Source: a virus (Duplodnaviria > Heunggongvirae > Uroviricota > Caudoviricetes). Taken from it: a stretch of DNA of 31,386 bases. Shown here piece by piece: positions 1,958 through 25,163 of the stretch. Numbering within the stretch: the stretch's first letter is position 1; every line of letters begins with the position of its first letter. The notes beneath the pieces are model-generated. The model had not been told where the DNA came from and made no database searches. It was given only the letters and a program-made list of their open reading frames with translations. A program made the translations under genes and the position numbers. The stretch lies in the IMG/VR virus record IMGVR_UViG_2713896900_000011, one strand, 5' to 3'.

Positions 1958-4405
1958 TTAACCGTCATGCATCATGCTGGCACGGGCGCGCGCACGTTTA
2001 TCCCGCTCGTATTTTTCGAGCGCATCCTGTAACTGGCGGTCAAGCTGTGTCCCCGGCGCAGTACCACCCGTAAGGCTGATGTGATATTCGTTTTTACTCT
2101 GGTCCACATAAGAGCGACCAGCCGGTGCCGTGACCGGCTGATAAGCCTGATAGCCTGCATAAGAGCTGGTCGCCGGAATATAACCACTGCTGCCATACGT
2201 GGCGGCTTGAGTTCTGGCGGCGGTCTGGTCAAGTGTGTCTGACTCTTTGTTGATAACACCGAGTTTTTCCAGTACCCAGTCAATACCACTGCGCAGTTTG
2301 TTGAACGCATTAAGCGGCAGCATCAGCGCGTCAGCCAGTGCCTGCCCGAACATGACACCCGTGTCACGGCAACGGTTCAGGGTGTCCTGGGTGGCTTTAA
2401 CCGGGGCAGTCAGGTTTTTAAACCACTGCCACGCGGCCTGTAACTTTTCGCCCAGCCAGTCAAACACCGGCTTCAGTGGCGTGAACAGCTCCCCCACCGG
2501 CGCAAATGCCGCTTTCAGCCCTTCAACCACACCGCCAAAGAATGCGCTGACAGGCTCCCAGTATTTACGGATAAGCAACGCTCCGGCGACAATGGCGGCC
2601 ACCACGGCCACAACCGGCCAGCTAATCGCCCCGATGGCCGTCATAACGGCACTGCCAACCGTCGTGAAGATTGCCCCCATTGCGCCTGCTGCCGCTATGA
2701 TGGCATTGATGCCGGTGATAACCGGCCAGGCTACAAGACCAATGGCACCGATGATGCCAGTAAGCGCCAGTGCGCCACCGGCAATGATGCCGATGGTTGA
2801 CGCCAGTGATTTGTTTTTCTGTATCCAGCCGTCGAGTTTTAACACATACTTTGTGGCCGTCTGCGTGAGCTTACGCAGCGCGCCTTCCTGCTGGTCAAAC
2901 AGGTCAGTCCCCACCGCCTCATAAGCGGACTGAAACTCCTTAAAGTCACCGCCGAGGTTGTCCTGCATGATATTTACCAGCTCGGCGGTCTTCCCGTCTG
3001 AGGCTTTAAACGCAGCGGTCAGTTTGTCCAGCTTTGCGGTTGAGGCGGCAGTCATCAGCACGGCGGCGGCTGAGCTGGCCTCCTCCCCGAAAATGGTTTT
3101 CATGTATTCAGCCTGCTGGGCAGTACCGAGCCGGTTTTTCTCAAAACTGGCCTGCATTTCTTTCAGAATGGTAAATACTGGTCGGGTATTCCCCTTACTG
3201 TCTGAGGTTTTCACGCCAAGCTCTTTGAGTGCATCCCATGCTTTTCCCGTCGGTGCCTGCAGGCGACTTAACACGGCACGGCTTCCCGTCCCCGCCATTG
3301 AGCCTGTGATTTTTGCATCATGCAGCGCCCCGACCATTGCGGCGGTTTCTTCAATGCTGACACCGGCATTTTTTGCCACTGGTGCGGCATAGGTCAGCGC
3401 ATCGCTCATGCCGTCAAAATCGGCGGCGGTTTTGTTCATCGTCATGGAGAGAACATCCCCGATATGAGCGACCTTATCGTTTGAAAGCTGAAAGGCAGAT
3501 TTCATCCCCATCAGCAGAGCGGCGTTTTCTTCCATCGTGCGGCGGTTCGCCAGCGCCATATTCAGTGTGACCGGCGTTGCCGCCTGAATGGCATCAACAT
3601 CCCCACCGGCTTTCGCAATAATAATCTGCGCGCCGGCCGCATCATCCGCTGAGGCGGCGGTGTTGTCACCGAGCTGGCGCGCCTGCTTGCGTAGTGCAGC
3701 CATTTCGGCGGAGTCTTTTGCCACACCGAGCACAGCCTGCAATTCTGAGTTTTTCTGCGCAAACTCATAACCGGGCATCAGCAACTTAACTCCGGCCATC
3801 GTTCCCGCCGCCGCAATCCCCACACCGGCAGCGCCCACCGAGGCCATATTTCCGGCCAGCTCCTTTCCGGCCTGATAACGCTGTTTTACTGCGTTAAGTT
3901 TTGCCTGTTGTGCACTGACACGCGCCAGCGCGTCACGCTGACGGTTAAGCTGTGCGGTGGTTTCACTGATACGGTTTTTCAGTCCCTGCTCATCATGTGC
4001 AAGATTGCGGGTATTAATTCCCACAGCGGCCAGTTCCCGCTGCTGGCGTTTAACGGAATCCGTCAGGCGGTTATATTTCGCCTGTAAGTCCTCCGCCGCT
4101 CGCTTTGCTGATTCCAGCACTTTCGCCTGAGCACGTGTCGGACGTTCGGTGTTTTTAAACTGTGTGGCAAGGGCTTCGGCCTCCTGCCGTGCCTTTTCAA
4201 GTGCATGACCAGTCACGGCGAGCTGTGCACTGGTCTTGCGAAATCCCTCAATACGGGATGCCTGACCGTTCAGCTCGCGCAGTGATTTTTGTGTTTCCCG
4301 GATATCCCCCGACAGCGATTTGCTCGCTGTACGGATGGATTTAAACGGGCGGGATGCCTGGTCAACAGCCCTGAGCAATACCTGTAATTTTACATTGTTA
4401 CTCAT
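1958..4405 (-). CDS. T: Tail tape measure protein T (815 aa)
   Basis: An 815-aa protein with long coiled-coil-like Ala/Gln/Arg-rich stretches and a central hydrophobic Gly/Ala-rich segment, placed right after E/E'. This is the expected tape measure position and size for P2. Confidence 0.9.
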   Translation of the reverse strand: MSNNVKLQVLLRAVDQASRPFKSIRTASKSLSGDIRETQKSLRELNGQASRIEGFRKTSAQLAVTGHALEKARQEAEALATQFKNTERPTRAQAKVLESAKRAAEDLQAKYNRLTDSVKRQQRELAAVGINTRNLAHDEQGLKNRISETTAQLNRQRDALARVSAQQAKLNAVKQRYQAGKELAGNMASVGAAGVGIAAAGTMAGVKLLMPGYEFAQKNSELQAVLGVAKDSAEMAALRKQARQLGDNTAASADDAAGAQIIIAKAGGDVDAIQAATPVTLNMALANRRTMEENAALLMGMKSAFQLSNDKVAHIGDVLSMTMNKTAADFDGMSDALTYAAPVAKNAGVSIEETAAMVGALHDAKITGSMAGTGSRAVLSRLQAPTGKAWDALKELGVKTSDSKGNTRPVFTILKEMQASFEKNRLGTAQQAEYMKTIFGEEASSAAAVLMTAASTAKLDKLTAAFKASDGKTAELVNIMQDNLGGDFKEFQSAYEAVGTDLFDQQEGALRKLTQTATKYVLKLDGWIQKNKSLASTIGIIAGGALALTGIIGAIGLVAWPVITGINAIIAAAGAMGAIFTTVGSAVMTAIGAISWPVVAVVAAIVAGALLIRKYWEPVSAFFGGVVEGLKAAFAPVGELFTPLKPVFDWLGEKLQAAWQWFKNLTAPVKATQDTLNRCRDTGVMFGQALADALMLPLNAFNKLRSGIDWVLEKLGVINKESDTLDQTAARTQAATYGSSGYIPATSSYAGYQAYQPVTAPAGRSYVDQSKNEYHISLTGGTAPGTQLDRQLQDALEKYERDKRARARASMMHDG

Positions 4406-4825
4406 TCGTGTTTCCGCTTCGCCGGAGCGCCTTTTCGCGCCATGTGATGAGTTCGGTCAGGCTCATGGGATACAGTTCTGATGGCGGCCAGTGAAATATC
4501 ACTGCCACATCCGCCATCAGGTCATCGACCGAGAGATTTTTCGGGAACGTCACTGCACCGAGTTCGGCGACAAAAAACCGACCACCTTACCGGCCAGCGC
4601 CACAAGGTCAGGCAGTTCCAGCGCGGCGACTTCCTGCTCGGTCAGCATCGGTGCCGTCATGCGCGGCAGCACTTTAATCAGTGCATCGACTTCGGAGTTT
4701 GCAACCGCAGCCAGACTGACACCGCGCAGCGTCCCGGCACTGGGTTTCATCAGCGTGACCTGTTCGATAACCTGCTCACCACGTTTGACCGGATTGTCCA
4801 GGGTAATGACATTTTCTTTGTTCAT
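4398..4825 (-). CDS. E': Tail assembly chaperone E+E' (about 141 aa), made by a programmed -1 ribosomal frameshift
   Basis: The slippery heptamer T-TTT-TTG sits at 4571-4577 (minus strand, codons G-F-L of E). Hand translation of the -1 frame from there reads VAELGAVTFPKNLSVDDLMADVAVIFHWPPSELYPMSLTELITWREKALRRSGNTNE and ends at a TAA at 4398-4400, overlapping the T start. The length agrees with P2 E+E' (142 aa). Confidence 0.75.
4550..4825 (-). CDS. E: Tail assembly chaperone E (91 aa, in-frame product)
   Basis: A 91-aa ORF ending ...VGFLSPNSVQ, in the P2 gpE position between FII and T. Confidence 0.85.
   Translation of the reverse strand: MNKENVITLDNPVKRGEQVIEQVTLMKPSAGTLRGVSLAAVANSEVDALIKVLPRMTAPMLTEQEVAALELPDLVALAGKVVGFLSPNSVQ
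4571..4577 (-). other. -1 frameshift slippery site (TTTTTTG)
   Basis: Read directly: the minus strand gives GGT TTT TTG near the 3' end of E. Confidence 0.75.
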
Positions 4826-4881
4826 GGTTTTCTCACTTCTGAATCGGGGTTAACCGGTCAGCCAGGCTGACCGGATGAAAA

Positions 4882-5400
4882 TCACAGGCCGATATTGCGG
4901 CGGTGTTGCTCCAGCCGGTCGACGCCGTTCACCTTCTCAATCATGTTGATGGTGTCGATTTCGACCAGCTCCTTACCGTCCATCGTCAGCCGGAAATAGG
5001 TGCAGACCACGGAGATTTTCGACTCGGTGTCTTCTCCCTGTTTACCCTCGCCAGTGTCGATTTCTTTCTGACGTCCACGCATGACCACCTCGACGGCCAC
5101 CGTTTCGCCGGTATCGTCGCGCTGGTAAGAGCCTGCAAAACGAATCGGTACGGCATCCACACCGGTTGCGGCGTAAAGCTCCCAGATAACCGAATCCGGG
5201 AAGCCACCGAGCGACCACTCCATTGACAGCGCATCGTCATCAAGGCCGAGGTCTACCGGTGCGCTGCCGTTCATCCCCGCACCGCGATAGTTTTCGAGCT
5301 TACGGGTCAGTTTTGGCAGCGTGACGGACTTTGCAACGCCCTGATAGCTGTAGCCGTTCAGAAAGACGTTCATTAACTTGAGTTTGCGCGGCATTGCCAT
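4882..5400 (-). CDS. FII: Tail tube protein FII (172 aa)
   Basis: Size and synteny match P2 gpFII, immediately downstream of the sheath gene. Confidence 0.88.
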   Translation of the reverse strand: MAMPRKLKLMNVFLNGYSYQGVAKSVTLPKLTRKLENYRGAGMNGSAPVDLGLDDDALSMEWSLGGFPDSVIWELYAATGVDAVPIRFAGSYQRDDTGETVAVEVVMRGRQKEIDTGEGKQGEDTESKISVVCTYFRLTMDGKELVEIDTINMIEKVNGVDRLEQHRRNIGL

Positions 5401-5412
5401 CGGTCAGGCTCC

Positions 5413-6603
5413 TTAATTGCTGTTAACCGAGGTAACCAGACTTGCCAGGTATCTGGAAGTAATACGCTGGCGCAGGGTCAGGTTTTCGAGAGGAGGCACC
5501 GGGGTATAGTCGTAGTCGATATACAGTTTTCCGGCCTTGAGGGTTTCCGCATCATTGGCTTCTTCACTGAACCAGCATGTGCCATCCACGATATAACCGT
5601 TGTTTTTCAGTTCGCGGAATTTGGCATTAATGCCATCAATGATGTCACGAATCAGCGTTGCGGTAATTGGCTTATCAATAGCCCACATGTGCGCCTCGGC
5701 CATCGTGTCGGCCAGTACCTGCGCGGTGCGGGTGTAGCTTTCAAAGAGGAACAGCGGGTCATCAGAGCAGGTACGGTTACCCCAGAAGCGGAAGCCGTCG
5801 CGGCGAATCAGCGTAGTGATGCCTGACTCGTTAAGCAGGTCAGCATCAGTGCCGGACTTCTGCAAATCCCAGAATACAGAGGCGCTGATGCCGGTAACAC
5901 CATTTACCCCGACGTTGGACAGCGTTTTATGCCAGCCCTGCTCCTGGTCGATTTTGGCACGCAGCCCCAGCGCACGGGCGGTGGCATACGCGGTGGCAGT
6001 GGTACTGGTAACCGTATCCCATGCGAGGAAATCCGGCCAGATGACCATCAGCTCACGCTGGCTGAAATTCTGACGGTAGGCTTTTGCCTCGGAAATGGTT
6101 TTACAGCCCCATGCGCTAATATACCCGAATGCATTCAGTTCCTGGCATACCGATGCCAGTGCGACGGCAACCTCTTTGGTGTCCAGTCCCGGTACGCCGA
6201 GAATGCGTGGTTTAACGCCGGTAACCGACTCAGCCCCCATCAGGGCTTTCAGTCCGGTGTACTGACCGTTTTCGTCGGTGGTGCCGATGATATTGGAAAC
6301 GGTCTGCGCGAGTTTCGTTTCCTCGTCGTCGCCGGTGCCGTCTTCCACACGCACGACAACGGTGACCGGTTTTGACTGGTCGGCGATGGCCTGCAACGAT
6401 GCCGCCAGCGTGCCTTTTTTACCGGCCTTTGCAATTGCGCTCTGCACATTGGTTATCAGCACAGGTTTATTGAGGGGGAAGGTTTCCGCATCCGCATCGC
6501 TGGCCGTGCAGACCATGCCGACAATGGCAGTGGATACGGTGGAAATGACGCGGGTGCCGTCGTTAATCTCCAGCACCTGCACGCCGTGATGATAGTCACT
6601 CAT
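5413..6603 (-). CDS. FI: Contractile tail sheath protein FI (396 aa)
   Basis: Size and synteny match P2 gpFI, the first gene of the tail operon. Confidence 0.9.
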   Translation of the reverse strand: MSDYHHGVQVLEINDGTRVISTVSTAIVGMVCTASDADAETFPLNKPVLITNVQSAIAKAGKKGTLAASLQAIADQSKPVTVVVRVEDGTGDDEETKLAQTVSNIIGTTDENGQYTGLKALMGAESVTGVKPRILGVPGLDTKEVAVALASVCQELNAFGYISAWGCKTISEAKAYRQNFSQRELMVIWPDFLAWDTVTSTTATAYATARALGLRAKIDQEQGWHKTLSNVGVNGVTGISASVFWDLQKSGTDADLLNESGITTLIRRDGFRFWGNRTCSDDPLFLFESYTRTAQVLADTMAEAHMWAIDKPITATLIRDIIDGINAKFRELKNNGYIVDGTCWFSEEANDAETLKAGKLYIDYDYTPVPPLENLTLRQRITSRYLASLVTSVNSN

Positions 6604-6902
6604 CCGTTTAACTCCGTGGTTAATGGGTGCAACTATTTTCTGTTGTGCAGAGCATGAGACGCTATTTGACCTGACTGGTCAGTGGATGAAACAACAGATA
6701 AAGAAAAGGCGGACAATTCGCCCGCTATCCTGATTTGTACTCACTCATTTTCCAACTGACAGTTTACATAGCCCAAACGCTATCAAATCTGACAGCCTGC
6801 TTTGAGCGAACAGCAGACATTCATTAATATGTTTGTTAGGCTAACTTTATATGATGATTACTGAAATTGACCTTAGTTTGAGAATTGCATTAGGGGAATA
6901 AA
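6604..6902. promoter_or_regulatory. Divergent intergenic region: expected late promoter for the FI operon (- strand) and promoter/RBS of the cargo gene (+ strand)
   Basis: A 299-bp AT-rich non-coding gap between divergent genes. An AGGGGA Shine-Dalgarno lies about 7 nt before the ATG at 6903. A TGTTGT...ACAACA inverted repeat sits at 6641-6646 and 6691-6696. I could not place exact promoter elements. Confidence 0.4.
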
Positions 6903-8009
6903 ATGGATGTCAATGAACTTAGAGAGTTACTTATCAAGTATAATGGCCTTCAAAATACTGATGAAGTCTATACGTTTTATTATGATGAAACGAATAACAT
7001 TCGAAAACTATATTTAAAAGATTCTGGCTTTAATGTTGTAAAGGCGGATAACTTCATCCTTGCAGGAATACTACACAAAGGGTTAAGCACTGACAGCGAT
7101 TATTCAACCCTGTTTCAAAAGCTTAATCTTCAAAAAAGTGTCAATGAGTTAAAACTCAGATATATCGCTAAGGGTAGTTTTTTGGATATGCTTAAATCTG
7201 ATAAGCTTTTAATTATTCTAAACTGGCTTATCGAAAACAATTTCTACATCCATTATTTTAATCTTAATATCACATACTGGTCTATTATTGACATTGTTGA
7301 TTCTATTATTGGAGAGCTACACAATCCTTTTTATATCATGAACCACATGTCACTTAAGAGCGATTTTTATGAGCTTGCCAATAGCAATCCCGATGTTTTC
7401 CTGAATGCTCTACATAAATTTAACTACCCCGATATTCCAGAAGAAAAAATTTATGAGTTTTGCCTCTGGCTTATCGATTTTACATGCATGCACAGTTGTA
7501 TGCTGCCAGATTTTCGAGCACACGCACTCGAAAATTTGGTTAAAGAATCTCTAAAAATCGAAGAACTACCGTTCATATCGGGATTTCATGGTCGAAAACT
7601 GATCGATAGCTTTATGGTATTTTATTTAAGAAACTTGTATCTATTTAAAAATTCCGTTCACATATTTGATGAAGAAAAAAGCATTCAAGATGAAGTTAAA
7701 AACTTCCCGTTAACTGAAAATGGCATACCAATACAGAATCATGAATTCGTTAAATCCCACAACTCAGAGGCTATCCAACTATCTGATGTTATCGCAGGCT
7801 TTTTGGGTAAGTATTTTTCTTACTTAAAAGATGTAAATGACGAGCAATTAGCGATTGATAAGTCAGCCTTAACGAGCAAGCAATTTAAGACCCTTTCTGC
7901 GTTAAAACACATTATTGATGTTTCTGATGATGTTAGCAGAGGATTTTTTAATGAAGTTAGCAGCGAGGGAGAGCGACGGAGAAATAATCGTTTTTTACAT
8001 GGCGTATAA
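6903..8009 (+). CDS. AT-rich cargo protein (368 aa) at the Z/fun-equivalent locus; DUF3800-like motifs; candidate anti-phage/abortive-infection protein
   Basis: A visibly low-GC gene on the opposite strand to the flanking late genes, with a strong SD. The N-terminal motif YTFYYDETNN and the C-terminal motif AIQLSDVIAGFL resemble the conserved DESG and QxADxxAG motifs I associate with DUF3800. The family assignment is from memory, not a search. Confidence 0.6.
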   Translation: MDVNELRELLIKYNGLQNTDEVYTFYYDETNNIRKLYLKDSGFNVVKADNFILAGILHKGLSTDSDYSTLFQKLNLQKSVNELKLRYIAKGSFLDMLKSDKLLIILNWLIENNFYIHYFNLNITYWSIIDIVDSIIGELHNPFYIMNHMSLKSDFYELANSNPDVFLNALHKFNYPDIPEEKIYEFCLWLIDFTCMHSCMLPDFRAHALENLVKESLKIEELPFISGFHGRKLIDSFMVFYLRNLYLFKNSVHIFDEEKSIQDEVKNFPLTENGIPIQNHEFVKSHNSEAIQLSDVIAGFLGKYFSYLKDVNDEQLAIDKSALTSKQFKTLSALKHIIDVSDDVSRGFFNEVSSEGERRRNNRFLHGV

Positions 8010-8108
8010 TCGTAAGGGGTAAATTCTGCTTTTGGCACAGGGCGAACTGTCAGATTGGTTTTCACTCTGTGCCATAGATGTATAAACTCACATCAGAGCT
8101 AATACGAT

Positions 8109-8687
8109 TTATTGCGGCATTTCTGGCCATTCTATATCCGGAGTATTTTCCGACTGAACGCGATTCAGTAGCACACGGTATTTTTTCCAGTGTGTCAGGC
8201 TTAACCTTTCTTCCTCGGTAGCCATATCTAAATCGACAGCATCCTGCAGCGTGGCAATAATTTCACCTGCATATGCAATCAGCTCTTTCTTCTGAGAGTC
8301 AGCCGCTCTGACAAGCGCATCACGCTCTGCATTCTCATCATTCACCCACGCATTTCCGTTCCATTTCTGATAATCCCCATCCGGGGAAATGGCTGTCACG
8401 TCTGGAGGTAATGCGCCAAGTTCAGAAATATAAATGGCTGCTCCTGTTTTTGTTTCATAGACAGTCTTTCCACGATGGTCTTCCACCAGATCCCATTTCA
8501 TTTCATCTGCATTGAAAACGGCGGCAAAACCCACCGGAATATCTGGAGGTGCAATGTCTGTACTGTTTGCTGGAAGACCTGTATGCGGCGGAATATATGC
8601 GTCACTTTCGCCAATAAATTCATTGGTTCCATCAAGTAAATTGAAAACGCGGATAGTTTGTGTCTCTGCACTCATTCTGAAAGTCAT
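8109..8687 (-). CDS. G: Tail fiber assembly protein G (192 aa)
   Basis: Immediately downstream of H, with its ATG overlapping the H stop by one nucleotide. Size and position are typical of P2 gpG/Tfa chaperones. The true start may be the internal MSAETQ. Confidence 0.8.
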
Positions 8688-21143: not shown

Positions 21144-22165
21144 TGAGCAAGAAAAAAGGGAAAACACCGCAACCTGCGGCAAAAAAAATGACCGCCAGCG
21201 CCCCGAAAATGGAGGCATTCACCTTTGGTGAGCCGGTGCCGGTACTCGACCGCCGTGACATTCTGGATTACGTCGAGTGCATCAGTAACGGCAGATGGTA
21301 TGAGCCACCGGTCAGCTTTACCGGTCTGGCAAAAAGCCTGCGTGCTGCCGTACATCACAGCTCCCCGATTTACGTCAAACGCAATATTCTGGCGTCGACA
21401 TTTATCCCGCATCCGTGGCTTTCCCAGCAGGATTTCAGCCGCTTTGTGCTGGATTTTCTGGTGTTCGGTAATGCGTTTCTGGAAAAGCGTTACAGCACCA
21501 CCGGTAAGGTCATCAGACTGGAAACCTCACCGGCAAAATATACCCGCCGTGGGGTGGAGGAGGATGTTTACTGGTGGGTGCCGTCCTTCAACGAGCCGAC
21601 ACCTTTCACGCCCGGCTCCGTGTTTCACCTGCTGGAGCCCGATATTAATCAGGAGCTGTACGGCCTGCCGGAATATCTCAGCGCCCTTAACTCTGCCTGG
21701 CTGAATGAATCGGCCACGCTGTTCCGCCGCAAGTATTACGAAAACGGCGCACATGCCGGATACATCATGTACGTCACCGATGCCGTGCAGGATCGCAACG
21801 ATATCGAAATGCTTCGCGAAAACATGGTGAAGTCGAAAGGCCGCAACAACTTTAAAAATCTGTTTCTCTATGCCCCGCAGGGGAAAGCCGACGGCATTAA
21901 AATTATCCCGCTCAGTGAAGTGGCAACGAAGGACGATTTTTTTAATATCAAAAAAGCCAGCGCCACTGACCTGCTGGACGCGCACCGCATCCCCTTTCAG
22001 TTGATGGGCGGCAAGCCGGAGAACGTCGGGTCGCTGGGTGATATTGAGAAAGTGGCAAAGGTCTTTGTCCGCAATGAGCTTATCCCGCTACAGGACAGGA
22101 TTCGGGAAATAAACGGCTGGCTTGACCAAGAAGTTATTAAATTCAAAAATTATAGCCTAGACTAG
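21143..22165 (+). CDS. Q: Portal (capsid) protein Q (340 aa)
   Basis: Size and synteny match P2 gpQ, co-transcribed with P. Confidence 0.9.
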   Translation: MSKKKGKTPQPAAKKMTASAPKMEAFTFGEPVPVLDRRDILDYVECISNGRWYEPPVSFTGLAKSLRAAVHHSSPIYVKRNILASTFIPHPWLSQQDFSRFVLDFLVFGNAFLEKRYSTTGKVIRLETSPAKYTRRGVEEDVYWWVPSFNEPTPFTPGSVFHLLEPDINQELYGLPEYLSALNSAWLNESATLFRRKYYENGAHAGYIMYVTDAVQDRNDIEMLRENMVKSKGRNNFKNLFLYAPQGKADGIKIIPLSEVATKDDFFNIKKASATDLLDAHRIPFQLMGGKPENVGSLGDIEKVAKVFVRNELIPLQDRIREINGWLDQEVIKFKNYSLD

Positions 22166-22182
22166 GTATTTTAGATAATAGC

Positions 22183-22200
22183 GCCGCTAGTAATAGCGGC
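22183..22200. terminator. Candidate bidirectional intrinsic terminator hairpin between convergent Q and the cargo operon
   Basis: GCCGCTA-GTAA-TAGCGGC: a 7-bp perfect stem with a 4-nt loop, flanked by T/A-rich sequence on both sides, lying between the Q stop (22165) and the last cargo stop (22220). Confidence 0.4.
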
Positions 22201-22219
22201 TTATAGTTCAGAAAAACAC

Positions 22220-22867
22220 TTATTCCTTCGGTTCATGATAGAAGTTTATGGGATAATGAATCACTTCATAATCTAAATTTGATACAGAATGTTTATGAGT
22301 ACTATAAAATACTAGTGGATTCTTATCACACTGCTGAATATTTATTTCTCTAGACGCATGAATTTTGGGCGCATTTTTAGTCAAGTAGGCAATATACTGT
22401 TGCATTACAGCAGAGCAAAGCTTATTTTTTGTATAGATAATTACACCACCCGATGCACTATCAACAGTCCCTGTACTATATCGCTCAGTAAGTTGCGAAT
22501 ATCCCTTAAAAAGGTACGAATATCCTGATGAGTGTTTCTTGGCTTCGCCATGCCATGTAAAATCTGCTAATTGAATTGTAATATCGCAATGACCGCGCTG
22601 ATTAACTTCATGATAAGCTCTTATCCCTAAGAATTCGTTATCTATTATTCCCAGAAGATGAAGTGTCAATTGGTCTTCGGTAAGTTCAAAGCCCATTTTG
22701 TTTGCATTTTGCTCAATTTTTCTTACTGCATAATCAAGTAACTCACGAACAAAAGCCTTAAAGTTATTATAAGATTCCATAGCATATGTCACCGCTGTAA
22801 GAATCTTATTAGCATTATCTATTACGTTATTTTTACGAATATCTGCCAGACTGAAACGTTGGACCAT
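22220..22867 (-). CDS. Cargo operon gene 3 (215 aa): hypothetical protein with a possible PD-(D/E)xK-like nuclease motif
   Basis: AT-rich. Its ATG lies 1 nt after the gene 2 stop and is preceded by a GGGGAG Shine-Dalgarno. The segment GHCDITIQLADFTWHGEAKK has the D-x13-E-x-K spacing of a PD-(D/E)xK core; this is an inference only. Confidence 0.6.
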   Translation of the reverse strand: MVQRFSLADIRKNNVIDNANKILTAVTYAMESYNNFKAFVRELLDYAVRKIEQNANKMGFELTEDQLTLHLLGIIDNEFLGIRAYHEVNQRGHCDITIQLADFTWHGEAKKHSSGYSYLFKGYSQLTERYSTGTVDSASGGVIIYTKNKLCSAVMQQYIAYLTKNAPKIHASREINIQQCDKNPLVFYSTHKHSVSNLDYEVIHYPINFYHEPKE

Positions 22868-22868
22868 G

Positions 22869-23288
22869 TCAACTCCCCACTTTCTTTAAAGAAAAGAAGG
22901 GGAAAATGAAATCCTCATAATCAGTTAAAATATCACCTGTTACAGGATGTTCAAATATATGATTTTTTTCCGCATCCATAACCTCACCAACGGTTACCGG
23001 ATAAAAATCGTCATTTTCATCAACAAAAAAATACTCCAATCTTAAAAGACTTACTTTAGGATTACATAAAACCTGAATGGCGATATAAATTTTATCGTTA
23101 TTTATTTCATCCGTAAAAGAAAGATTACCACCATTCTCTTTGATATACAGATTAACAAGATCTGGATAGCTCATTAAACAGTTTTTTTTACATTGCGGGG
23201 AGAGCTTCATCAATGCATTATAGAGAGCGCATGCGATTTCACCGACATTCGCATCAGTAACGCATATTTCTTTAATAATGTCTGCCAT
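22869..23288 (-). CDS. Cargo operon gene 2 (139 aa): hypothetical protein
   Basis: AT-rich. I take the start as the ATG at 23286-23288 (MADIIKEI...), preceded by a strong GGGAGG Shine-Dalgarno. The track's start 5 codons upstream overlaps that SD. Confidence 0.6.
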   Translation of the reverse strand: MADIIKEICVTDANVGEIACALYNALMKLSPQCKKNCLMSYPDLVNLYIKENGGNLSFTDEINNDKIYIAIQVLCNPKVSLLRLEYFFVDENDDFYPVTVGEVMDAEKNHIFEHPVTGDILTDYEDFIFPFFSLKKVGS

Positions 23289-23316
23289 TGATTTCCTCCC
23301 CATACCTACTACCTTC

Positions 23317-24480
23317 TTAAACGATTAAACTCATTAAACGTTCAAAATCGTCCCGTCCCAGACAATTATTAATAATAGCATAGTTTACTGACGTGGAGCT
23401 AGAACCTCCGAGGTAACGGCGAAGAGAGCCGGGAATGATCAACTCAAGATCATCATCTAGTGATAGAAGCACATTCACTCTTGAAATTTTTATACCAATC
23501 TTGTAAAGACCTATCTGCCCTACTGCTTTAATTCCTTCTTGGTTAAAGATATCATCACGCAAATCTTTTTTTGCTTCTTTTTTCTTTTCCTGATGCGTAG
23601 TTCCCTCTGGAGTATAGAAAGATAATTCAAAAACTTGATAATCGCTTGCATTAAAAGGATAGGTGTTTTGAGCAAAAATTTGTTCAATTAGAGGGAAAAA
23701 GTCTTTTTCTGTCGAAACAAAATCAGCCCCCATATAATCGTATAATTTTCTAACAATTACGGTTTTAGAAAATGTAATTGTCTCTCCAATAACATTTTTG
23801 GGAGCATCAATAAGTATATTGATAGTGTTATCTTGTATATTTAAAATACAAACATCAAAACATTGTCTTCTAACTTTCTTTTTGGCTATGATTTCATCGT
23901 AGCTTTGATATTGTGGGATTGTTTGCGGTGAGACCTTTTCTTTTATTACTTGCTCCCTGACTGATGAAAAAAGGGCTATCACTTGATTGCTGTCAGTAGA
24001 GCAAAAGATTAGTTGAGGGCTATTTTTAGGTGTGGATAATAACTGTTGCTCATTAAGAATGTAACTTGATACATTTTGTAAAATAGTAGTGTTTGCCCAT
24101 TCTGTCTGAATGGCTAAGCTTAGCCCTGTCATGGTTGGAGCATCAATTGCCAAAGAAAAAATAGCCTTATCGCCATAGAAAAACTGACTAAAAAGAAGGT
24201 CATTAATTTTCTTTAACAATGAGTCAAATTTAACTCTGTCCGTGTCTCTAATTTCAATCAACTGCTCTTTAACTTTATTAAAAGTCGCATCCTTACCGCG
24301 ACCAAGAGAAAAACCTAATGACGACAAAACAGATTTTACTATAGACCAACTTATTCTATTAAATAGACAATTCAGACTTTTTAGTTCAATGTCAGACAGT
24401 GACGATTGTACTGTATTATTTGCTGCTAATACAGCCTGAGGGACAGATGAATTTACTGTTGTAGGGACAATGCCTGTCAT
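23317..24480 (-). CDS. Cargo operon gene 1 (387 aa): hypothetical protein
   Basis: AT-rich. The track ORF begins at a TTG at 24525; the first ATG (24478-24480, MTGIVPTT...) has a GGAG Shine-Dalgarno about 6 nt upstream. I recognise no domain. Confidence 0.6.
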   Translation of the reverse strand: MTGIVPTTVNSSVPQAVLAANNTVQSSLSDIELKSLNCLFNRISWSIVKSVLSSLGFSLGRGKDATFNKVKEQLIEIRDTDRVKFDSLLKKINDLLFSQFFYGDKAIFSLAIDAPTMTGLSLAIQTEWANTTILQNVSSYILNEQQLLSTPKNSPQLIFCSTDSNQVIALFSSVREQVIKEKVSPQTIPQYQSYDEIIAKKKVRRQCFDVCILNIQDNTINILIDAPKNVIGETITFSKTVIVRKLYDYMGADFVSTEKDFFPLIEQIFAQNTYPFNASDYQVFELSFYTPEGTTHQEKKKEAKKDLRDDIFNQEGIKAVGQIGLYKIGIKISRVNVLLSLDDDLELIIPGSLRRYLGGSSSTSVNYAIINNCLGRDDFERLMSLIV

Positions 24481-24598
24481 TGCAAACTCCAGTTCCGCTA
24501 ACAAAACCTCTAAGAATATTGGCAAGCAAGTATCTTCAAATATCAGGGAAAGTCAATCCAATAGCTCTCTTTTTGCGATGGGAAACTGTTAGCGCGCA

Positions 24599-24617
24599 GT
24601 GCTTTCCCCGCCTCGCC
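24599..24617 (-). other. cos site (19-nt cohesive-end sequence)
   Basis: The minus strand reads GGCGAGGCGGGGAAAGCAC, which I recall as the P2 19-nt cohesive end. Confidence 0.75.
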
Positions 24618-24944
24618 TGCCCGCTTTATGGGGCGGTTTTAATGCAGATGCACGAACACGCCGGAGGCGCGCCAGCACCGGCGGCGCTCACACGTGACTT
24701 GGAAGGAAAACGCATGCGATTCGATGCAATAATGCATGCAGAGCTAAAAATGGCAGAACATACTGAAAAAACGCATAAAAAAACGGCATTCAGGTTGCCG
24801 GTTTGAGTCGGCTTCATTGTGGTTACTGGCCGCGCTATGCGCCAATAATACCAGGAGTCAATCTGATAACCAGCTAACGCCTCGCTACGCTCGTTGTTCA
24901 ACCCCGCCAGCCCTGAAAACAAGTTTCACGACTGGCGGCGTTCT

Positions 24945-25163
24945 CTATCGTCTGCGTGGTGGTGGCGTAACTCTTGATTGACCGATATGATTAAACCGCC
25001 CGTAATTATCCCGGACTATTTCGGCACACCCGACTAGCTCATCGGGCGTCAGATTTTCGTTGACCATAATCCGCTGTAAACGCTGAACAATAGCCATCAG
25101 CTTGATATTTTTAGTTTTATGGTGTGGTATCTCACCTGGTATTCTGTGCATTATCCAAGCCAC
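24945..25163 (-). CDS. Hypothetical small protein (72 aa)
   Basis: An ORF between the ASCH-like gene and cos, with nothing recognisable; the call rests on coding context only. Confidence 0.3.
   Translation of the reverse strand: MAWIMHRIPGEIPHHKTKNIKLMAIVQRLQRIMVNENLTPDELVGCAEIVRDNYGRFNHIGQSRVTPPPRRR

What the first reader, a model, noticed from the sequence alone, without database searches (positions are those of the whole stretch)
6604..8108. Single AT-rich cargo gene with DUF3800-like motifs in the Z/fun slot between tail sheath gene FI and tail fiber assembly gene G
A 368-aa plus-strand gene of clearly lower GC than its neighbours sits between two minus-strand late operons, with its own non-coding flanks. 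In P2 this position holds Z/fun, which blocks T5, and in P2-like phages generally it is a known variable defense hotspot. The protein has an N-terminal FYYDETNN motif and a C-terminal IQLSDVIAGF motif that resemble the two conserved motifs of DUF3800 proteins, a family without an established mechanism. I cannot tell from memory whether this is simply a Z/fun homolog.
Basis: partly seen in the sequence, partly recalled or inferred. Interest (0 to 1): 0.7.

Follow-up and report, generated by a model that had tools for sequence, protein, structure and literature searches.

The report
Untested DUF3800 nuclease-like gene in P2 hotspot
A P2-like prophage carries, in a slot known to hold anti-phage genes, one foreign gene for a predicted RNase H-like nuclease of the DUF3800 family; standard tools already flag it as an untested defence candidate, so it is a good test case but not a new kind of system.

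Summary
A 368-aa plus-strand ORF (6903-8009, GC 0.34 against 0.56 for the backbone) lies between tail sheath gene FI and tail fibre assembly gene G.

- **Family:** it passes the Pfam DUF3800 cut-off (32.2 bits, cut-off 21). It matches PADLOC candidate PDC-S51 end to end (E 1e-106) and PHROG 15126.
- **Not Fun(Z):** BLASTP against the real 528-aa P2 Fun(Z) gives E 3.8.
- **Maintained and independent:** dN/dS is 0.13-0.24. It has no conserved partner gene and no DUF3800-associated RNA motif.
- **Context:** it occurs mostly on plasmids, ICEs and defence islands, and seldom in phages.

The best reading is a stand-alone anti-phage nuclease expressed from the prophage. The function is inferred, because PDC systems are explicitly untested.

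The cargo is a deletion derivative of a two-gene cassette (PD-T7-1-like plus DUF3800). It is bounded by small conserved hairpins that also occur in a Klebsiella plasmid, a Vibrio island and other P2-like phages. What these sites are is unresolved.

Novelty: new member of a known kind. Interest is moderate.

The parts
6903..8009 (+). ORF of 368 aa: stand-alone DUF3800-family protein (PADLOC PDC-S51, PHROG 15126) with a predicted RNase H2-like core
6892..6897 (+). Shine-Dalgarno AGGGGA, 5 nt before the ATG; conserved in close homologs
6793..8038 (+). Transferable unit: 88.7% identical over 1,246 nt to a Klebsiella IncF conjugative plasmid (NZ_CP132605)
6796..6817 (+). L hairpin CCTGCTTTGAGCGAACAGCAGA (stem CTGCT/AGCAG, loop containing TGAGCGA). 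Present in P2-like phages and at the left end of the Vibrio and Klebsiella cassettes
6804..6847 (+). Cassette leader. It is 93% identical to the sequence that in Vibrio lies upstream of the PD-T7-1-like gene. It contains the only (weak) promoter candidate, TTGAGC(6802)-17-TAATAT(6825)
6848..6864 (+). Relic of the last codons and stop of a deleted PD-T7-1-like gene (reads ..LYDDY*)
8025..8046 (+). R hairpin, degenerate copy (TCTGCTTTTGGCACAGGGCGAA). Intact versions follow the stop codon in the Vibrio, Klebsiella-plasmid and L100 copies
6786..6817 (.). Left arm of a 32-nt imperfect inverted repeat that brackets the slot (partner 8025-8056); the outer 10 nt, AATCTGACAG, are perfectly complementary
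8025..8056 (.). Right arm of the slot-bracketing inverted repeat
8033..8074 (.). Strong backbone hairpin between the convergent stops of the DUF3800 ORF and gene G; no T-run on either strand
6709..6725 (-). Intrinsic terminator-like hairpin with a T-run on the late-gene strand, between the slot and the pF promoter region; conserved in the P2 reference

Best explanation
The gene is lysogenic-conversion cargo in the Z/fun hotspot of a P2-like prophage. It encodes a self-contained protein of the DUF3800 family (subfamily PDC-S51). The protein has a type-2 RNase H-like, metal-dependent catalytic core with these predicted active-site residues: the adjacent D28-E29 at the end of strand 1, D130, the H253/D256/E258 cluster, and Q292xxD295. 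A helical insertion of about 110 residues and a C-terminal helical bundle surround the core. Most likely the lysogen expresses it, and it acts as an anti-phage nuclease that cuts a nucleic acid made during infection by another phage. The substrate could be an RNA:DNA hybrid or a structured RNA or DNA. Cutting would either destroy the invader directly or stop the infected cell. The helical parts would provide substrate recognition or autoinhibition. Shown here: family membership, fold, invariant acidic residues, purifying selection, location in a documented hotspot, carriage on mobile elements and defence islands, independence from any partner gene or RNA, and a second independent capture of the family in the same slot. 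Inferred: nuclease activity, substrate, trigger, expression in the lysogen, and the anti-phage phenotype.
Against: No experiment exists. PDC systems are explicitly untested candidates, and no paper in the library mentions PDC-S51. No convincing sigma-70 promoter was found upstream; the only candidate matches 8 of 12 positions. The link to RNase H rests on fold alone, since hhalign against E. coli RNase HII gives nothing, Foldseek on the PDB gives nothing, and Altae-Tran et al. note a 'catalytic rearrangement' in DUF3800. I could not check that the invariant residues cluster in 3D, because model coordinates are not exposed. The gene is rare: 6 of 5,426 complete E. coli genomes, 3 of 50,697 phage records and 13 loci in 2.9 million viral contigs. 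The same kind of hairpin-bounded unit carries a non-defence GFA-family gene on another plasmid, so the vehicle is not specific to defence.
Confidence: 0.6

Rival explanations
1. Orphaned half of a two-gene system. The DUF3800 protein normally works with the PD-T7-1-like protein encoded just upstream, and the copy in this phage is a non-functional or reduced-function remnant left by the deletion.
For: The window keeps the last codons of a PD-T7-1-like gene (..LYDDY*) and the leader that precedes that gene in Vibrio, which implies a precise 1,431-nt deletion. In L003, L004, L007 and L008 the two genes are 33-39 nt apart and co-oriented.
Against: Only 5-6 of about 80 loci have the PD-T7-1-like neighbour. 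PD-T7-1 is reported as a defence system in its own right. The deleted form is shared by a Klebsiella plasmid and several P2-like prophages, and it remains under purifying selection after the deletion: window against fiAA91-ss gives dS 0.087 and dN/dS 0.24. Distant family members are solo and keep all catalytic residues.
Confidence: 0.12
2. Counter-defence or other phage-benefit gene. The RNase H-like enzyme degrades a host immune nucleic acid, such as retron msDNA, a guide:target hybrid or a defence-associated ncRNA, to help the P2-like phage rather than the host.
For: DUF3800 domains associate with retrons, CRISPR loci and eleven ncRNA motifs, so nucleic acids of immune systems are plausible substrates. 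The gene is phage-borne here.
Against: The family is far more common on plasmids, ICEs and chromosomal islands than in phages. It is oriented against the late operons, as the lysogenic-conversion gene fun(Z) is. It sits in a slot where tested occupants are defence genes. PDC-S51 was defined by being embedded inside BREX, DISARM or type I RM loci.
Confidence: 0.1
3. Self-mobile element. The protein is a DDE/RNase H-fold transposase or recombinase that moves its own hairpin-bounded cassette, and it has no role in immunity.
Against: The best structural matches are RNase H2/H3, not transposases. The same L and R ends flank unrelated cargo, namely an ATPase plus HNH pair, a GFA-family gene and other P2 cargo, so the ends do not belong to this protein. 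Most of the 80 homolog loci lack the hairpins. No Pfam transposase or integrase family is hit.
Confidence: 0.04
4. Replication or repair accessory. It is an RNase H used by the phage to remove primers or R-loops during its own replication.
For: The fold resembles RNase HII/HIII.
Against: The gene is absent from nearly all P2-like phages. It sits in a variable low-GC slot away from the replication genes. It has no sequence similarity to RNase HII. The large insertions are atypical of housekeeping RNase H.
Confidence: 0.03

Closest known systems
DUF3800 (Pfam PF12686)
   Same: It passes the family's gathering score and has the N-terminal DE and C-terminal QxxD motifs and an RNase H-like fold.
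   Different: The 149-position Pfam profile is spread over residues 25-302, so this protein carries about 130 extra, mostly helical residues plus a 65-residue C-terminal helical region. None of the eleven DUF3800-associated RNA motifs is nearby.
PADLOC phage defence candidate PDC-S51 / PHROG 15126
   Same: Full-length HMM matches, at E 1.2e-106 and 7e-250. Single-gene architecture.
   Different: PDC-S51 was nominated by being embedded in BREX, DISARM or type I RM loci and has not been tested. Here the gene is in a P2 prophage hotspot.
Retron type VII effector (DUF3800 protein, or an RT-DUF3800 fusion)
   Same: The same domain family, modelled on RNase H2, in a defence context.
   Different: There is no reverse transcriptase or msr/msd RNA in the 1.2-kb cargo. 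The retron proteins lack the Q of QxxD, whereas Q292 is invariant here. PADLOC returns PDC-S51 as the only match at E up to 10.
TPR-DUF3800 accessory proteins of Cas12a2/Cas12a3 and type VI-F CRISPR loci
   Same: A DUF3800 RNase H-fold nuclease domain linked to immunity.
   Different: No TPR domain and no CRISPR-Cas neighbours; it stands alone.
Type-2 RNase H (RNase HII, RNase H2A, RNase HIII)
   Different: Identity over the aligned residues is 6-11%. No profile-level similarity was found, and the Pfam scan returned only DUF3800 above its cut-off. It has extra domains and an extra invariant H/D/E cluster.
P2 Fun(Z)
   Same: The same slot between G and FI. Both are antisense to the late operons, low in GC, non-essential cargo.
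   Different: The proteins are unrelated: 528 aa against 368 aa, BLASTP E 3.8, and Fun(Z) has no Pfam domain.
PD-T7-1 (Vassallo et al. 2022)
   Same: A homolog is the upstream cassette partner in the Vibrio, Thiodiazotropha and Ketobacter loci, and its 3' relic is present in the window.
   Different: It is a different protein. It has been deleted here and is absent from most loci of the family.

Membership tests
DUF3800 (PF12686) | Match to the Pfam HMM above the gathering score | tested here: met
   32.2 bits against a cut-off of 21, E 2.1e-7, profile positions 2-147 of 149
DUF3800 (PF12686) | N-terminal DE motif and C-terminal QxxD motif | tested here: met
   D28-E29 and Q292-L-S-D295 are invariant in 32 homologs; the motif definition is
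DUF3800 (PF12686) | RNase H-like fold | tested here: met
DUF3800 (PF12686) | Neighbouring DUF3800-I to -XI, drum or skipping-rope RNA motif (frequent, not obligatory) | tested here: not met
   No Rfam match in the window or in 22 homolog loci totalling 275 kb. At least two of the motifs (DUF3800-I and DUF3800-IX) are confirmed to be in Rfam
PADLOC PDC-S51 | Full-length match to the PDC-S51 HMM | tested here: met
   E 1.2e-106, residues 2-366 against profile 4-370 of 376
PADLOC PDC-S51 | Anti-phage activity | not testable with these tools
   PDC systems are described as untested and unvalidated; no paper mentions PDC-S51
Retron type VII | Reverse transcriptase and msr/msd ncRNA next to the DUF3800 gene | tested here: not met
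   Only one substantial ORF in the 1.2-kb cargo; no Rfam hit; PADLOC returns PDC-S51 as the only match at E up to 10
CRISPR-associated TPR-DUF3800 | TPR domain fused to DUF3800, adjacent to cas12a2/a3 or a type VI-F locus | tested here: not met
   No TPR Pfam hit; the neighbours are phage tail genes
Type-2 RNase H (RNase HII/HIII) | Sequence membership (RNase HII family profile; DEDD residues in the canonical motifs) | tested here: not met
   No RNase HII Pfam hit; a profile search of the PDB finds nothing; hhalign against E. coli RnhB gives probability 0.06
Type-2 RNase H (RNase HII/HIII) | Cleavage of RNA in RNA:DNA hybrids | not testable with these tools
   Needs biochemistry
Fun(Z) of P2 | Sequence homology to P2 Fun(Z) (NP_046777) | tested here: not met
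   BLASTP best E 3.8
Occupant of the P2 Z/fun defence hotspot | Variable low-GC cargo between G and FI in a P2-like genome | tested here: met

The most novel reading that the evidence does not exclude
The gene is the payload of a small cassette bounded by hairpins and inverted repeats (L site GTCYGCT-WKGAGYGARN-AGCRGAC, R site GTCYGCT-TTGGCACAA-AGCRGAC). The cassette would move by site-specific recombination between the P2 Z/fun slot, conjugative plasmids, ICEs and chromosomal islands, possibly helped by IS110-family recombinases that sit at the same motif on plasmids. That would give a physical mechanism for the rapid swapping of defence genes in P2 hotspots, which PMC13586616 says is still to be elucidated. 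On the same reading, the solo DUF3800 protein would be a complete sensor-plus-effector nuclease.
Probability: 0.15. Interest if true: 0.7.

Novelty: new member of a known kind. Interest (0 to 1): 0.42.

Why it matters
DUF3800 has been an unsolved domain for years. It sits next to eleven unrelated structured RNA motifs, it serves as the predicted effector of type VII retrons, and it accompanies Cas12a2/a3 and type VI-F CRISPR loci. No activity has been shown for it in the literature searched here. This copy is a compact single gene of about 1.1 kb, in an E. coli-type phage, with its native leader and no partner gene or RNA. That makes it a convenient experimental handle on what the domain does. 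Separately, the conserved hairpin ends and the traceable deletion history give a concrete lead on how cargo is exchanged at P2 hotspots. As a discovery in itself it is modest: RefSeq already names the gene as DUF3800, PADLOC already flags it, and the slot is a published hotspot.

Tried and rejected
1. My first Fun(Z) comparison used the 197-aa occupant of the slot in record OU784746. That is not Fun(Z). I repeated it with the annotated 528-aa Fun(Z) of NC_001895. Neither protein is related to the window protein.
2. Foldseek against the PDB and BFVD gave nothing significant, apart from one short viral DUF3800 protein (probability 0.99, E 7.5e-3).
3. A profile search of PDB sequences and hhalign against E. 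coli RNase HII gave no residue-level alignment, so I could not map the catalytic residues onto RNase HII.
5. Rfam at permissive thresholds found only chance snoRNA-like hits, plus a sub-threshold IS009 hit inside gene G.
6. A search for a family-wide conserved non-coding element next to the gene found similarity only between closely related loci. Median flanking gaps are about 100 nt.
7. The sigma-70 consensus scan found no promoter upstream. A relaxed scan gave one weak candidate.
8. A loose regular expression for the R hairpin was non-specific in GC-rich genomes: 35 hits against 11-23 in shuffles. I therefore relied only on the specific AT-rich instances.
9. I first read the 1,607 plasmid hits to the L site as widespread cassette sites. 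In all three plasmids inspected (L104, L105 and L106) the motif lies at the right boundary of an IS110-family element, so I withdrew that reading.
10. I could not obtain Nilsson et al. 2004 (Mol Biol Evol 21:1), whose title points to site-specific recombination at P2 variable loci, or the 2026 preprint on a tRNA-derived messenger that mentions DUF3800.

Full report
**1. Observation**

The window is a P2-like prophage. It matches fiAA91-ss, STYP1 and P24A7b at 95-97% over most of its length.

Between the minus-strand tail sheath gene FI (5413-6603) and the tail fibre assembly gene G (8109-8687) lies one plus-strand ORF, 6903-8009, of 368 aa. A Shine-Dalgarno AGGGGA sits 5 nt before the ATG.

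GC is 0.34 for the ORF and cargo, against 0.56 for the flanking backbone.

**2. Identity of the protein**

- Pfam DUF3800 (PF12686) is matched above its curated cut-off: 32.2 bits against 21. The 149-position profile is stretched over residues 25-302, so the protein carries a large insertion.
- PADLOC gives a full-length match to PDC-S51 (E 1.2e-106).
- PHROGs gives phrog_15126, function unknown.
- NCBIfam gives nothing.
- RefSeq annotates the same gene in E. coli prophages as 'DUF3800 domain-containing protein'. In phage fiAA91-ss it is 'hypothetical protein orf20', at 96% nucleotide identity.

It is not a Fun(Z) homolog. The reference P2 Fun(Z) is a 528-aa protein encoded antisense to the late genes. 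It shows no similarity (BLASTP E 3.8) and has no Pfam domain. My earlier comparison was to a different 197-aa occupant of the slot in record OU784746, which is also unrelated.

**3. Family and structure**

The word-index search found 657 relatives of uniform length, about 370 aa. The exhaustive profile search found 1,119 cluster representatives, of which 541 have E at or below 1e-30. Nearly all are 355-395 aa and are matched end to end.

Members occur in Gamma-, Alpha- and Betaproteobacteria, Nitrospira, cyanobacteria, Chloroflexia, Clostridium and Bacteroidetes.

In an alignment of 32 members down to 33% identity, these residues among others are invariant: D28, E29, N31, N32, R34, K84, D130, K152, H253, D256, E258, Q292, D295, G299 and K303.

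Foldseek on the PDB finds nothing. Sequence profiles give no link to RNase HII. So the relationship is one of fold only.

This agrees with the literature. DUF3800 is described there as an RNase H-fold nuclease with DE and QxxD motifs and a 'catalytic rearrangement'.

The gene is under purifying selection, with dN/dS of 0.13-0.24.

**4. Context and independence**

The slot is the one that holds fun(Z) in P2. Vassallo et al. 2022 documented it as a second defence-enriched P2 locus. Of 63 phage records that share the left backbone, only two carry this cargo, and both are entries for fiAA91-ss.

The cargo is rare:
- 6 of 5,426 complete E. coli genomes, always in this slot
- 3 of 50,697 phage records
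- 13 loci in 2.9 million viral contigs

By contrast, 148 plasmid records carry homologs, 65 of them conjugative.

In about 80 genomic loci no neighbour family recurs in more than 11. The recurrent neighbours are GajA/OLD/PtuA/AriA-type ATPases, GajB, PD-T7-1, SoFic, Shedu, ArdC, relaxases and recombinases.

DUF3800 genes are known to sit beside eleven structured RNA motifs, at least two of which (DUF3800-I and DUF3800-IX) are confirmed to be in Rfam. None is found in the window or in 22 homolog loci. Flanking gaps are short and not conserved across the family. This subfamily is therefore a stand-alone protein.

A second family member, only 29% identical, occupies the same slot in a more distant P2-like viral contig. 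It lies in the opposite orientation, so it is an independent capture.

**5. Anatomy of the cargo**

Comparison with P2-type phages puts the backbone/cargo junctions near 6822 and 8036. The unit shared with non-phage replicons is 6793-8038. It is 88.7% identical over 1,246 nt to a Klebsiella IncF conjugative plasmid.

Against a Vibrio island the homology splits in two:
- window 6804-6847 matches the leader upstream of a PD-T7-1-like gene (93%)
- window 6848-8039 matches from the last 17 nt of that gene through the DUF3800 gene (86.5%)

So the window carries a precise 1,431-nt deletion of the PD-T7-1-like gene. The relic reads ..LYDDY*. The Klebsiella plasmid has the same deletion, so the deletion predates the divergence of the plasmid and phage copies.

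Both ends of the unit carry small hairpins that share a stem:
- L: GTCYGCT, a loop containing TGAGYGA, then AGCRGAC
- R: GTCYGCT, loop TTGGCACAA, then AGCRGAC

In Vibrio they flank the two-gene unit. In the Klebsiella plasmid they flank the DUF3800 gene and, separately, an ATPase plus HNH pair. In P2-type slots the L and R regions form imperfect inverted repeats of about 33 nt.

Two caveats apply. First, the L motif on plasmids (1,607 records) lies at the right boundary of an IS110-family element in all three plasmids inspected (L104, L105 and L106). Second, one plasmid has an L, GFA-family gene, R arrangement, so these units are not specific to defence. Whether the sites are recombination sites, IS targets or shared terminators is unresolved.

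**6. Expression signals**

By homology to the annotated P2 reference, positions 6604 to about 6790 hold the pF start site and activator site, and a conserved terminator-like hairpin on the late strand (6709-6725).

No good sigma-70 promoter precedes the ORF. The only candidate is TTGAGC(6802)-17-TAATAT(6825), matching 8 of 12 positions. Its -35 element lies in the L-hairpin loop.

A strong hairpin without a T-run (8033-8074) lies between the convergent stops of the ORF and G. The annotated P2 V-operon terminator is not conserved here. Late transcripts may therefore run antisense through the gene as far as 6725-6709. This last point is inference.

**7. Mechanism**

The best-supported reading is a self-contained anti-phage nuclease. 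It would have a type-2 RNase H-like metal-dependent core, with a helical insertion and a C-terminal bundle for substrate recognition or autoinhibition. The lysogen would express it, and it would act on an infection-specific nucleic acid.

- Shown: family, fold, invariant residues, selection, hotspot location, mobile and defence contexts, independence from partners, and repeated capture.
- Inferred: activity, substrate, trigger, expression and phenotype.

PDC systems are explicitly untested and no paper mentions PDC-S51. I put confidence at about 0.6.

The rivals are an orphan of a two-gene system (0.12), a counter-defence gene (0.10), a self-mobile element (0.04) and a replication accessory (0.03).

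**8. Novelty and verdict**

The gene belongs to a catalogued but uncharacterised candidate family, in a published hotspot. Standard pipelines flag it. I rate it a new member of a known kind.

Its value is practical. It offers a minimal E. coli-compatible handle on the long-unexplained DUF3800 domain. The cassette ends also bear on the open question of how P2 hotspots swap cargo. Interest: 0.42.

Noticed in passing
window 21600-25000 (ORFs 23317-24525, 22869-23303 and 22220-22867, all minus strand): A second low-GC island (GC 0.34-0.41) lies in the classical old/tin hotspot next to the portal gene. It holds three near-contiguous co-directional ORFs of 402, 144 and 215 aa. None has any Pfam or PADLOC match at E up to 1e-3. 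The related phages stop matching the window at about 22.1 kb. This could be an uncharacterised three-gene defence system, and it may be more novel than the finding evaluated here.
   Followed up: partly
window 6786-6817 and 8025-8056; also L001, L100: The Z/fun slot is bracketed by an imperfect inverted repeat of about 32 nt, with a perfect outer 10-mer (AATCTGACAG / CTGTCAGATT). It is conserved in fiAA91-ss and in a divergent P2-like contig (L100), but its right arm is absent from the P2 reference.
   Followed up: partly
window 6796-6817 and 8025-8046; L003 6464 and 9123; L104 1176, 3443, 4895 and 6123; L005 6928; L106 about 5017 and 5590: Two related small hairpins with the same stem and different loops (L and R types) mark the ends of gene cassettes on a Vibrio island, a Klebsiella IncF plasmid, a Pectobacterium ICE, an Enterobacter plasmid and P2-like phages. 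The cargo between them varies: PD-T7-1-like plus DUF3800, DUF3800 alone, an ATPase plus HNH pair, and a GFA-family gene.
   Followed up: partly
L104 about 3610-4920; L105 3720-5039; L106 3741-5045: An IS110-family element of about 1.3 kb, common on Klebsiella and Enterobacter plasmids, has its right boundary inside an L-type hairpin. This explains most of the 1,607 plasmid hits to the L motif. In L104 the element sits exactly between one cassette's R hairpin and the next cassette's L hairpin. From memory, it resembles IS5075/IS4321, which target transposon terminal repeats. I did not verify that.
   Followed up: partly
window 6848-6864: A relic of the 3' end of a PD-T7-1-like defence gene (..LYDDY*), left by a precise 1,431-nt deletion relative to the Vibrio cassette. 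The same deletion is present in the Klebsiella plasmid copy.
   Followed up: yes
L100 (IMGVR_UViG_2767802166_000003) 5001-6188: A family member only 29% identical to the window protein occupies the same slot of a more distant P2-like phage, inverted relative to the backbone. This is an independent capture of the same family.
   Followed up: partly
L005 13290-14024 (Pectobacterium parmentieri ICE): A second, short (244-aa) DUF3800 gene lies about 4 kb from the long-form homolog in the same island. A Shedu SduA_C gene and an Imm63 gene lie between the two DUF3800 genes.
   Followed up: no
window 8146-8300, minus strand: A sub-threshold Rfam hit to IS009 (40.7 bits against a gathering score of 117, E 1.6e-7) lies inside the coding sequence of gene G. 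It probably reflects tail-fibre-assembly-like sequence in the Rfam seed rather than an RNA.
   Followed up: no
OU784746.1 (L002) 3330-3923, and Yersinia phage vB_YpM_46 15949-16881: Other occupants of the same slot: an unrelated 197-aa ORF with no Pfam domain in a record labelled P2, and a distant PD-T7-1/5-like gene at about the same genome position in P2-like Yersinia phages.
   Followed up: no
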